A program made the position numbers and the translations under genes. Below the pieces are notes generated by a model. The model saw only the letters and a list, made by a program, of their open reading frames with translations, was not told where the DNA came from and ran no database searches. From Thermoplasmata archaeon (GTDB lineage Archaea; Thermoplasmatota; Thermoplasmata; UBA10834), in contig JAWCKF010000007.1 in the NCBI GenBank assembly GCA_038852315.1, positions 1,148-65,147 on the forward strand: 64,000 nt of DNA, read 5' to 3'. Of this stretch, positions 24,021 to 62,173 are shown one piece after another. Every line of letters begins with the position of its first letter. Position 1 is the stretch's first letter.

Positions 24021-24128
24021 ATGAAGCGAAGCTCTAGGGCCTGGAAGAAGCGCGGCAAGCAGCGCTGGAAGTGGCGCAAGAAGAAGATGAGGAGGAGGAA
24101 GAGGGCCCAGAAGCTGCGGAAGAAGTAG
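24021..24128 (+). CDS. rpl41e: 50S ribosomal protein L41e (eL41)
   Basis: 35-aa peptide MKRSSRAWKKRGKQRWKWRKKKMRRRKRAQKLRKK. The WRKKKMRRRKR core matches eL41 (WRKKRMRRLKRKRR). Confidence 0.75.
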   Translation: MKRSSRAWKKRGKQRWKWRKKKMRRRKRAQKLRKK

Positions 24129-24153: not shown

Positions 24154-24325
24154 GGGGGTATGGGGTAACCTGGTATCCTTACGGGCTCCAGTTATGGGAA
24201 TGATTTCCGAGGGGTTTGCTGACCAGTGATGACTGACTGGAGCGATGACCCGTGTTCGAAACGGGCGGAGTCGCTCTCCGCCTGGTGGAAACCCGTCGAT
24301 GAGGGTTCAAATCCCTCTGCCCCCA
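24154..24325 (+). tRNA. trnW: tRNA-Trp (anticodon CCA at 24188..24190) with a 99-nt intron (about 24192..24290)
   Basis: Folded by eye. The acceptor GGGGGTA pairs with TGCCCCC. The anticodon stem ACGGG pairs with CCCGT, which lies across the intron. The anticodon loop is CTCCAG with the intron following it. The T-arm is GAGGG-TTCAAAT-CCCTC and the discriminator is A. Confidence 0.85.
24196..24251 (+). ncRNA. box C/D guide sRNA embedded in the tRNA-Trp intron (predicted targets C34 and C39 of the same tRNA)
   Basis: The order is C-like AUGAUUU (24200-06), a 12-nt guide (24207-18), D' CUGA (24219-22), a 3-nt loop, C' GUGAUGA (24226-32), a 12-nt guide (24233-44) and D-like AUGA (24245-48). A GGG/CCC terminal stem closes the element. 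Both guides are complementary to the host pre-tRNA. Confidence 0.65.
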
Positions 24326-62070: not shown

Positions 62071-62173
62071 GCTCCCGTAGTGTAGTCCGGCCAATCATTC
62101 GAGCCTCTCGCGGCCGCTGCCCGCGGCAGGCCGGTGAAAGCTCGATACCCGGGTTCAAATCCCGGCGGGAGCA
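62071..62173 (+). tRNA. trnE: tRNA-Glu (anticodon CTC at 62107..62109) with a 28-nt intron (about 62111..62138)
   Basis: Acceptor GCTCCCG/CGGGAGC, D-arm GTGTAGTCCGGCCAATCAT (typical of archaeal tRNA-Glu), anticodon stem CGAGC/GCTCG split by the GC-rich hairpin intron CGGCCGCTGCCCGCGGCAGGCCGGTGAA, and T-arm CCGGG-TTCAAAT-CCCGG. Confidence 0.85.

What the first reader, a model, noticed from the sequence alone, without database searches (positions are those of the whole stretch)
24154..24325. tRNA-Trp intron encodes a box C/D sRNA whose two guides target C34 and C39 of its own tRNA
The 99-nt intron has canonical archaeal C/D spacing. The elements in order are AUGAUUU (C-like), the 12-nt guide CCGAGGGGUUUG, CUGA (D'), CCA, GUGAUGA (perfect C'), the 12-nt guide CUGACUGGAGCG and AUGA (D-like), closed by a GGG/CCC stem.
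- Guide 2: ACUGGAGC (24236-43) is Watson-Crick complementary to the anticodon-loop sequence GCUCCAGU (24185-92). The fifth nucleotide upstream of the D-like box (G24240) pairs with C34 (24188).
- Guide 1: it pairs with AAACCCGUCG across the intron/exon-2 junction (9 bp, one mismatch). The fifth nucleotide upstream of D' (G24214) pairs with C39 (24292).
This reproduces the arrangement established for Haloferax volcanii pre-tRNA-Trp (Cm34 and Um39), in a lineage that looks unrelated to haloarchaea. Both terminal boxes are degenerate but keep the GA dinucleotides needed for the k-turn.
Basis: partly seen in the sequence, partly recalled or inferred. Interest (0 to 1): 0.6.

Follow-up and report, generated by a model that had tools for sequence, protein, structure and literature searches.

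The report
Self-targeting methylation guide in tRNA-Trp intron
The tryptophan tRNA gene of this uncultured Thermoplasmata archaeon has a 99-base intron that holds a small guide RNA aimed at two sugars of its own anticodon arm; the arrangement is real and conserved, but it is the classical one already described for Haloferax and Pyrococcus.

Summary
Window 24154-24325 is an intron-containing tRNA-Trp(CCA), found by the Rfam covariance model (41.1 bits) and by ARAGORN in intron mode (99-nt intron).

The intron holds a complete box C/D sRNA:
- a terminal stem;
- C AUGAUUU, a 12-nt guide and D' CUGA;
- a 3-nt spacer;
- C' GUGAUGA, a 12-nt guide and D AUGA.

The nucleotide five upstream of each D-type box pairs with C34 (24188) and with C39 (24292).

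About 40 relatives keep the layout. The C34 guide is invariant. The C39 guide, the terminal stem and an extra hairpin show compensatory changes. The "degenerate" terminal boxes carry a compensated pair, U6-A1 in place of G6-C1. The genome encodes fibrillarin, Nop5, L7Ae, a splicing endonuclease and RtcB.

The organism belongs to Thermoplasmata, which are classical euryarchaeotes, and the intron guide is recalled, from the abstract of a paper not held here, as conserved across euryarchaeotes (Clouet d'Orval 2001). Cm39 is already listed as a variant of Um39. Rfam sR3 matches below its threshold.

Local twists are the U-A k-turn variant and a clade-specific 9-bp hairpin next to the splice helix. 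No methylation or splicing data could be obtained. This scan has noted related guides on other DNA many times.

The parts
24154..24191 (+). tRNA-Trp(CCA) exon 1. Anticodon CCA is at 24188-24190, C34 = 24188 and G37 = 24191.
   Evidence: Rfam RF00005 at 41.1 bits; ARAGORN in intron mode; read from the sequence.
24192..24290 (+). 99-nt intron at the canonical 37/38 position.
   Evidence: The boundaries come from the bulge-helix-bulge geometry: bulges A24190 G24191|U24192 and A24289 A24290|A24291 flank the helix 24186-89/24285-88. That helix is kept in 28 of 28 relatives except at C34.
24193..24198 (+). Terminal stem (stem I), 5' strand; pairs with 24249-24254.
   Evidence: 97% of cells paired; 3 of 6 pairs have changes on both sides (helix 5).
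24200..24206 (+). Box C variant AUGAUUU. G24202 and A24203 form the sheared pairs with the D box, and U24205 pairs with A24245.
   Evidence: Sequence. RUGAUUN is kept in most of about 40 relatives. The U6-A1 pair occurs in 27 of 28 (helix 6).
24207..24218 (+). 12-nt D' guide; G24214 (N+5) pairs with C39.
   Evidence: 9 bp plus one mismatch with 24289-24298; core conserved, with two pairs changing on both sides.
24219..24222 (+). Box D' CUGA.
   Evidence: Invariant in the 28-sequence alignment.
24226..24232 (+). Box C' GUGAUGA, 3 nt after D' (K-loop arrangement).
24233..24244 (+). 12-nt D guide; G24240 (N+5) pairs with C34.
   Evidence: 10-bp duplex with 24185-24194 at -17.7 kcal/mol; the 8 core pairs are 99.6% kept.
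24245..24248 (+). Box D variant AUGA.
   Evidence: CUGA is found in relatives L024 and L160.
24249..24254 (+). Terminal stem (stem I), 3' strand.
   Evidence: helix 5.
24262..24284 (+). Clade-specific 9-bp hairpin with loop UCGCU (24271-75). Its base directly abuts the central splice helix.
   Evidence: 98.4% paired, and 5 of 9 pairs have changes on both sides (helix 7). It is absent from relatives with short introns of 66-69 nt.
24285..24288 (+). 3' strand of the central 4-bp helix of the splice motif; pairs with 24186-24189, with C34 opposite U24286 unpaired.
   Evidence: helix 4: C32:G 28/28, U33:G/A 28/28, C34 0/28, C35:G 28/28.
24291..24325 (+). tRNA-Trp exon 2. A38 = 24291, C39 = 24292 and the discriminator A = 24325; no CCA end is encoded.

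Best explanation
This is the single tRNA-Trp(CCA) gene of an uncultured Thermoplasmata archaeon. Its 99-nt intron, at the canonical 37/38 position, is a complete box C/D guide RNA.

Proposed mechanism (inferred from sequence and from the Haloferax and Pyrococcus precedent; nothing here was measured):
1. L7Ae binds the terminal k-turn. That k-turn has a 6-bp stem, a 3-nt bulge AAU, tandem sheared G.A pairs, a U.U pair and then U-A in place of the usual G-C. L7Ae also binds the internal D'/C' K-loop.
2. Nop5 and fibrillarin join the complex.
3. The guide next to box D pairs with the anticodon loop and the first three intron bases. This places C34 five nucleotides from box D for 2'-O-methylation.
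4. The guide next to box D' pairs with the last two intron bases, A38 and the 3' strand of the anticodon stem. This places C39 five nucleotides from D'.
5. Both duplexes include intron bases, so the substrate must be unspliced pre-tRNA. The guide may act within one molecule or, as shown for Haloferax, between molecules.
6. The RNA then refolds into a bulge-helix-bulge. The dimeric-type endonuclease cuts at 24191/24192 and 24290/24291, and RtcB joins the exons.

What is shown here: the anatomy, its conservation, the covariation of stems and of part of the C39 guide, and the presence of all protein genes.
For: - Gene and intron.
- Geometry: the boxes and the two 12-nt spacers fit the archaeal box C/D layout.
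- Duplex strength: both duplexes are stronger than nearly all shuffled guides.
- Best target: within the pre-tRNA the D guide's best register-fixed site is C34, with 10 of 10 pairs. For the D' guide, C39 ties on pair count (9 of 10) with a T-loop site but has more Watson-Crick pairs, 9 against 8.
- Conservation: 38 of 41 genomes of the class match the gene, and about 40 parsed relatives keep the layout.
- Structure counts: 96% of cells paired, and 14 pairs with double changes, a value reached by 0 of 500 shuffles.
- Guide counts: the D duplex is invariant. In the D' duplex, G-C changes to A-U at tRNA position 44.
- Further compensation in divergent relatives, for example L030 and L028.
- Box covariation: AUGAUUN with AUGA against AUGAUGA with CUGA in L160.
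- Rfam sR3 matches 24196-24250 (25.1 bits, E = 1.7e-4). Its consensus carries the same UGGAGC and CGGGU guide cores.
- Proteins encoded in the genome: fibrillarin at 243.7 bits, Nop5, L7Ae, an endonuclease with two catalytic-type domains in one ORF and RtcB.
- Literature: PMC4090602, PMC7994747 and PMC6313347.
Against: - No modification data exist for this organism.
- RNA-library contigs of relatives show only the unspliced form. No spliced or circular joint was seen, and DNA carry-over cannot be excluded.
- The terminal boxes depart from consensus, and L7Ae binding to the U-A variant is inferred.
- The C39 duplex has an internal mismatch in every relative (guide position 8 or 9), and only 6-7 contiguous pairs.
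- The Rfam sR3 score is below the gathering threshold (25.1 against 41).
- C34 is unpaired in the central splice helix. The hairpin turns the 5' splice bulge into a three-way junction, which departs from the strict motif expected for this endonuclease type.
Confidence: 0.85

Rival explanations
1. Only the box D guide works, giving Cm34. The D' half is a decaying relic, and C39 is either unmodified or modified by another route.
For: - The D' duplex is interrupted in all 28 relatives, and guide position 9 is unpaired in 25 of 28.
- The 5' third of the guide varies freely.
- Some class members have lost the complementarity, for example L027 and L163.
- In this genome the guide has a private AG dinucleotide at 24210-11 that fits the T-arm about as well as it fits C39.
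Against: - The core U-GGG-Y opposite A38-C39-C40-C41-G42 is essentially invariant and in exact N+5 register.
- Compensatory changes occur at tRNA position 44 and at the intron's 3' end.
- The Pyrococcus-type sR3 consensus carries the same core.
- Position 39 methylation is established in Haloferax.
Confidence: 0.12
2. The intron sRNA mainly guides methylation of another RNA (rRNA or another tRNA) in trans, and its fit to its own tRNA is secondary.
For: Excised archaeal tRNA introns and box C/D sRNAs can be stable or circular (PMC7994747). The 23S rRNA is missing from this assembly, so it could not be scanned.
Against: - In 16S rRNA the D' guide's top-ranked site has N+5 unpaired, and the D guide's best sites have only 8 of 10 pairs.
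- Apart from one tRNA-His site for the D' guide (10 of 10 pairs counting G.U; not examined further), no tRNA site matches the fit to pre-tRNA-Trp.
- The invariant parts of both guides are exactly those that pair with tRNA-Trp.
Confidence: 0.03
3. The box-like words are chance features of an ordinary structured intron that is conserved only for splicing.
For: Both terminal boxes are non-consensus, and the Rfam box C/D match is below threshold.
Against: - Four boxes stand in the right order with two exact 12-nt spacers and two register-exact duplexes.
- All of this is conserved across a class and recognisable across half of a phylum sample.
- Relatives with short introns keep the box C/D unit and little else.
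Confidence: 0.02

Closest known systems
Intron-encoded box C/D guide of euryarchaeal pre-tRNA-Trp (Haloferax volcanii; Pyrococcus abyssi sR50). Sources: Omer 2000; Clouet d'Orval 2001, NAR 29:4518; Bortolin 2003; Singh 2004. These are cited through PMC7994747, PMC4090602 and PMC6313347.
   Same: - Same host gene (tRNA-Trp CCA) and same intron position (37/38).
- The same two targets (34 and 39), each five nucleotides from a D-type box.
- Both duplexes span an exon-intron junction.
- Same protein set, and the same need to alternate between the guide duplexes and the splice motif.
   Different: - The target at 39 is C rather than the U of Haloferax. Cm39 is already listed as a variant in PMC6313347.
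- The terminal boxes are AUGAUUU and AUGA, with a U-A pair replacing G-C.
- An extra conserved 9-bp hairpin lies between the box C/D unit and the splice helix.
- C34 is unpaired in the central helix.
Rfam RF01133 (sR3), a Pyrococcus-type box C/D sRNA family.
   Same: It aligns end to end with 24196-24250. Its consensus has the same box order, CGGGU in the D' guide and UGGAGC in the D guide. I infer that it is the Thermococcales tRNA-Trp intron sRNA.
   Different: The score is 25.1 bits against a gathering score of 41. The sR3 consensus has canonical AUGAUGA and CUGA terminal boxes. That sR3 equals the Trp intron is my inference from the consensus and was not checked in Rfam's annotation.
Trans-acting sR-tMet type guide for Cm34 of intron-containing elongator tRNA-Met (Haloferax; Joardar 2008, cited in PMC4090602).
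   Same: It is a box C/D guide that pairs across the exon 1/intron junction of a pre-tRNA and puts C34 at N+5. This genome has such a free-standing sRNA (G000:C4:86142-86204).
   Different: That guide is a separate gene with canonical boxes. The element studied here sits inside its own target's intron.

Membership tests
Archaeal box C/D sRNA | Terminal box C (RUGAUGA) and box D (CUGA) that can form a k-turn closed by a terminal stem. | tested here: met
   AUGAUUU and AUGA keep the two sheared G.A pairs and the U.U pair. The G6-C1 pair is replaced by U6-A1 (27 of 28 relatives). A 6-bp terminal stem with compensatory changes and a 3-nt bulge are present. This is by sequence only; protein binding was not tested.
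Archaeal box C/D sRNA | Internal D' and C' boxes. | tested here: met
   CUGA, then a 3-nt spacer, then GUGAUGA; invariant or nearly so.
Archaeal box C/D sRNA | Guide spacers of about 12 nt between C and D' and between C' and D. | tested here: met
   12 and 12 nt in this genome; 11-12 nt in all but a few divergent or unclear parses among the relatives.
Archaeal box C/D sRNA | Guide-target duplex with the target nucleotide paired to the fifth guide nucleotide upstream of D or D'. | tested here: met
   G24240:C24188 lies within a 10-bp duplex. G24214:C24292 lies within 9 bp plus one mismatch.
Archaeal box C/D sRNA | The genome encodes L7Ae, Nop5 and fibrillarin. | tested here: met
   243.7 bits; 195.9 bits; 99.1 bits.
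Archaeal box C/D sRNA | The target is 2'-O-methylated in vivo. | not testable with these tools
   No modification data are available. RNA-library contigs only show presence of the precursor in relatives.
Euryarchaeal pre-tRNA-Trp intron guide | The guide lies in the intron at position 37/38 of tRNA-Trp(CCA). | tested here: met
   The bulge-helix-bulge register is conserved (helix 4).
Euryarchaeal pre-tRNA-Trp intron guide | Two guides aimed at positions 34 and 39, with both duplexes spanning an exon-intron junction. | tested here: met
   The D duplex uses intron bases 24192-94. The D' duplex uses intron bases 24289-90.
Euryarchaeal pre-tRNA-Trp intron guide | Splice sites lie in a bulge-helix-bulge, and the endonuclease and ligase are present. 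| tested here: met
   Two 3-nt bulges flank a 4-position helix in which 3 positions pair and C34 does not. EndA was found and RtcB. Deviation: a hairpin makes a three-way junction at the 5' site.
Rfam RF01133 (sR3) | Covariance-model score at or above the gathering threshold (41 bits). | tested here: not met
   25.1 bits, E = 1.7e-4, and 15.9 bits in the whole-genome search. It is therefore not filed as a member of this Rfam family, only as a likely distant homologue.

The most novel reading that the evidence does not exclude
In this Thermoplasmata clade the intron has been rebuilt in two ways.
1. A conserved 9-bp hairpin with a near-invariant UCGCU loop has taken over the role of the outer helix of the splice motif. 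The box C/D terminal stem plays that role in relatives with short introns. The result is a three-way-junction splice site that uncouples RNP assembly from endonuclease recognition, or that binds an unknown factor.
2. The terminal k-turn has been re-tuned from G-C to U-A, possibly to weaken or to time L7Ae binding on the precursor.
Probability: 0.2. Interest if true: 0.35.

Novelty: new member of a known kind. Interest (0 to 1): 0.2.

Why it matters
The main value is for annotation. Default tRNA finders miss this essential single-copy tRNA-Trp gene (ARAGORN without intron mode found none), and the Rfam box C/D models miss its guide.

The result extends a textbook example of a self-targeting guide RNA to a broad set of uncultured Thermoplasmatota. 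It also gives natural covariation data on a non-consensus k-turn (U-A in place of G-C) and on how a box C/D unit and a splice motif share one RNA.

It does not open a new question.

Tried and rejected
- ARAGORN without intron mode found no tRNA in the window.
- The founding papers PMC92551 and PMC275556 are not held. Their content is cited through reviews and, where marked, from memory.
- A 15-base pattern scan of genome contigs gave mostly chance bacterial hits.
- RNA evidence: the runs hold only small shares of the stretch. When laid, the contigs come from relatives (88-97% alike). They show the unspliced precursor, including one 167-nt contig from a size-fractionated wetland library that begins exactly at 24154. 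No spliced or circular joint was seen, so nothing is decided.
- Idea: the motif AGUCGCU of the hairpin loop also occurs in the tRNA-Met and tRNA-Tyr introns of this genome and might be a shared element. Rejected. In Met it is not conserved in relatives, and in Tyr it is explained by pairing with the anticodon arm.
- Idea: the hairpin loop UCGCU pairs with AGCGA at the junction of the D guide and box D. There is no covariation where that junction reads AGCAA.
- Other targets: in 16S rRNA the D' guide's top site has N+5 unpaired and the D guide reaches at most 8 of 10 pairs. One tRNA-His site pairs 10 of 10 with the D' guide when G.U pairs are counted, and was not followed up. The 23S rRNA is not in the assembly.
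- The minimum-free-energy fold of the naked precursor does not give the cloverleaf. The proposed structure is 31 kcal/mol above it. That is expected for an RNA that folds with proteins, so it was not used as evidence.
- The small ORF upstream has no Pfam or NCBIfam hit.

Full report
**What is there.**
The sequence at 24154-24325 reads as a tRNA with a long insertion in the anticodon loop.
- ARAGORN in default mode finds nothing.
- The Rfam tRNA model covers 24154-24325 at 41.1 bits, with about 100 inserted bases after the anticodon.
- ARAGORN in intron mode reports tRNA-Trp(cca) with a 99-nt intron. It is the only tRNA-Trp among 47 calls in the 1.71-Mb assembly.
- ARAGORN cuts two bases further 5' (24190-24288, giving A37). 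The alternative is the canonical cut between positions 37 and 38 (24192-24290, giving G37).
- The conserved pairing C24186:G24288, U24187.G24287 and C24189:G24285 leaves two 3-nt bulges, A24190 G24191|U24192 and A24289 A24290|A24291. That is the archaeal bulge-helix-bulge with cuts after the second bulged base, so I take the canonical boundaries.

**The box C/D unit.**
In order, the elements are:
- stem 24193-98 paired with 24249-54 (6 bp, two of them G.U);
- a 3-nt bulge AAU;
- box C variant AUGAUUU (24200-06);
- a 12-nt guide (24207-18);
- D' CUGA (24219-22);
- spacer CCA;
- C' GUGAUGA (24226-32);
- a 12-nt guide (24233-44);
- box D variant AUGA (24245-48).

In a box C/D k-turn the C-box G3 and A4 make the sheared pairs with the D-box A4 and G3. 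U5 faces U2, and G6 pairs with C1 (established k-turn knowledge). Here U24205 faces A24245, so the two departures from consensus compensate each other.

**Guide duplexes.**
- The D guide pairs with 24185-24194 over 10 bp, one of them G.U. G24240 lies opposite C34. The energy is -17.7 kcal/mol, and 3 of 2000 shuffled guides do as well.
- The D' guide pairs with 24289-24298 over 9 bp with one G.G mismatch. G24214 lies opposite C39. The energy is -14.9 kcal/mol, and 16 of 2000 shuffles do as well.
- A register-fixed scan of the pre-tRNA gives C34 as the clear best site for the D guide. For the D' guide, C39 ties on pair count with a T-loop site and has more Watson-Crick pairs.

**Relatives.**
- A BLAST of the gene against 41 genomes of the same class matched 38, 23 of them full length.
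- A pattern scan added named MAGs labelled Thermoplasmata, Thermoplasmatota or Methanomassiliicoccales. Two of these (L115, L136) are near-identical to the window's type.
- Together with earlier notes on this genome, this places the organism in uncultured Thermoplasmata.
- The intron alone is recognisable by BLAST in 122 of 251 sampled genomes of the phylum, mostly through the C'-guide-D segment.
- Nearly all of the about 40 precursors I parsed keep the order C, guide, D', short spacer or small hairpin, C', guide, D.

**Counts on the 28-sequence alignment (A1).**
- Proposed structure: 96% of cells paired, and 14 pairs with changes on both sides. None of 500 shuffles and none of the slid registers reach this.
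- Terminal stem: 3 of 6 pairs are compensatory.
- U6-A1: present in 27 of 28.
- D-guide duplex: invariant, so it says nothing by covariation but shows strong constraint.
- D' duplex: 85.6% paired. Position 44 of the tRNA changes from C to U together with G to A in the guide (5 sequences). The guide base opposite G42 switches between U and C.

More divergent relatives add compensation:
- L030, with anticodon stem CCAGC, has guide GCAGG... followed by matching changes at positions 43-45.
- L028, with an intron ending in GAU, has guide ...GGGUAUU.
- L160, from a complete 1.49-Mb genome of the same class, has canonical AUGAUGA and CUGA boxes. The G-C to U-A change is therefore a true double substitution within the class.

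**Machinery.**
The genome encodes:
- fibrillarin (243.7 bits);
- Nop5 (195.9 bits);
- L7Ae (99.1 bits);
- a splicing endonuclease with two catalytic-type domains in one 394-aa frame, the dimeric type;
- RtcB (599.8 bits).

It also has a free-standing box C/D sRNA with canonical boxes. The D guide of that sRNA pairs across the exon/intron junction of the intron-containing tRNA-Met with C34 at N+5. The guide system is therefore in use in this organism.

**How it most likely works.**
The steps are inferred from the Haloferax and Pyrococcus system.
1. The RNP assembles on the intron of the precursor, or on an excised intron acting on another precursor.
2. It methylates C34 and C39. Both duplexes need intron bases, so methylation must precede splicing of the substrate.
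3. The guide duplexes and the splice motif use the same bases (24186-92 and 24289-94), so the RNA must switch between the two conformations.
4. Endonuclease and RtcB then produce the mature tRNA, with loop CUCCAGA.

I put 0.85 on a genuine dual guide of the known kind. Within that, I give about 0.85 for Cm34 and about 0.65 for Cm39, because the C39 duplex carries a mismatch in every relative.

**Local peculiarities.**
- Relatives with short introns (66-69 nt: L032, L040, L097, L111) form a textbook helix-bulge-helix-bulge-helix in which the box C/D terminal stem is the outer helix.
- The window's clade instead has a 9-bp hairpin (24262-84) with loop UCGCU. Five of its 9 pairs are compensatory.
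- The last pair of that hairpin abuts the central splice helix. The 5' splice bulge therefore becomes one strand of a three-way junction.
- C34 is never paired in the central helix in this clade (0 of 28), but it is paired in L160.
- I could not assign a function to the loop. Two ideas were tested and dropped (see Tried and rejected).

**Comparison with what is known.**
- Reviews state that archaeal tRNA-Trp introns (median 65 nt) nest a box C/D RNA that selects C34 and U39 (PMC4090602).
- Pyrococcus sR50 is that intron (PMC7994747).
- The products are listed as "Cm34 and Um39 (or Cm39)" in several archaea (PMC6313347).
- C34 and C39 are predicted targets in P. furiosus (PMC7668247).
- From memory of the abstract of Clouet d'Orval 2001 (the paper is not held), the two duplexes are "phylogenetically conserved in euryarchaeotes".
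- Rfam sR3 aligns end to end with 24196-24250, but below its threshold.
- This scan has already noted related tRNA-intron or tRNA-Trp guides in at least 39 other genomes.

**RNA data.**
Contigs from three RNA libraries carry the unspliced precursor of close relatives. One 167-nt contig starts exactly at the tRNA 5' end. No spliced or circular joint was seen, and DNA carry-over cannot be excluded.

**Verdict.**
This is a new member of a known kind with minor structural variations, and its interest is low.

Noticed in passing
window 24021-24128 (+): A 35-codon, extremely basic ORF (MKRSSRAWKKRGKQRWKWRKKK...) ends 25 nt before tRNA-Trp, with no obvious promoter between them. It has no Pfam or NCBIfam hit. 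From memory it resembles archaeal ribosomal protein L41e. Contigs of relatives also end a short basic ORF just upstream of the tRNA (loose ends).
   Followed up: partly
window 62071-62173 (+): A second intron-containing tRNA (Rfam 46.1 bits). Read by eye it is tRNA-Glu(CUC) with a 28-nt GC-rich intron at 37/38. ARAGORN instead calls Ser(UGA) with a differently placed intron.
   Followed up: partly
L151:1501-1563 (G000:C4:86142-86204): A free-standing box C/D sRNA with canonical boxes and a hairpin between D' and C'. Its D guide matches 10 contiguous bases across the exon 1/intron junction of the intron-containing tRNA-Met (G000:C27:10462-10569), with C34 at N+5. This is the sR-tMet type.
   Followed up: partly
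window 24210-24211 against 24308-24317: This genome alone has AG where relatives have UU in the D' guide; the environmental contigs also read UU. With AG the guide makes 10 contiguous pairs with the T-loop/T-stem strand CAAAUCCCUC, but with G.U at the N+5 position (U60). This is probably drift.
   Followed up: partly
L028:1365-1569 (-) (G034): In this class member the tRNA-Trp gene stops matching after GGGUUCAAA in the T-loop and continues with unrelated sequence. This could be a second intron or an assembly break.
   Followed up: no
L163 (G033) and L165 (G036): These are class members in which the 5' half of the intron (C box and C39 guide) is replaced or unrecognisable while C', the C34 guide and a D-like box remain. 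L165 also has a non-UGA D box.
   Followed up: no
L094 (CAYOXJ010000078.1): A Thermoplasmata MAG contig carries the 3' two-thirds of this intron type and exon 2, joined to an unrelated 5' part. It is either a chimeric assembly or a broken gene copy.
   Followed up: no
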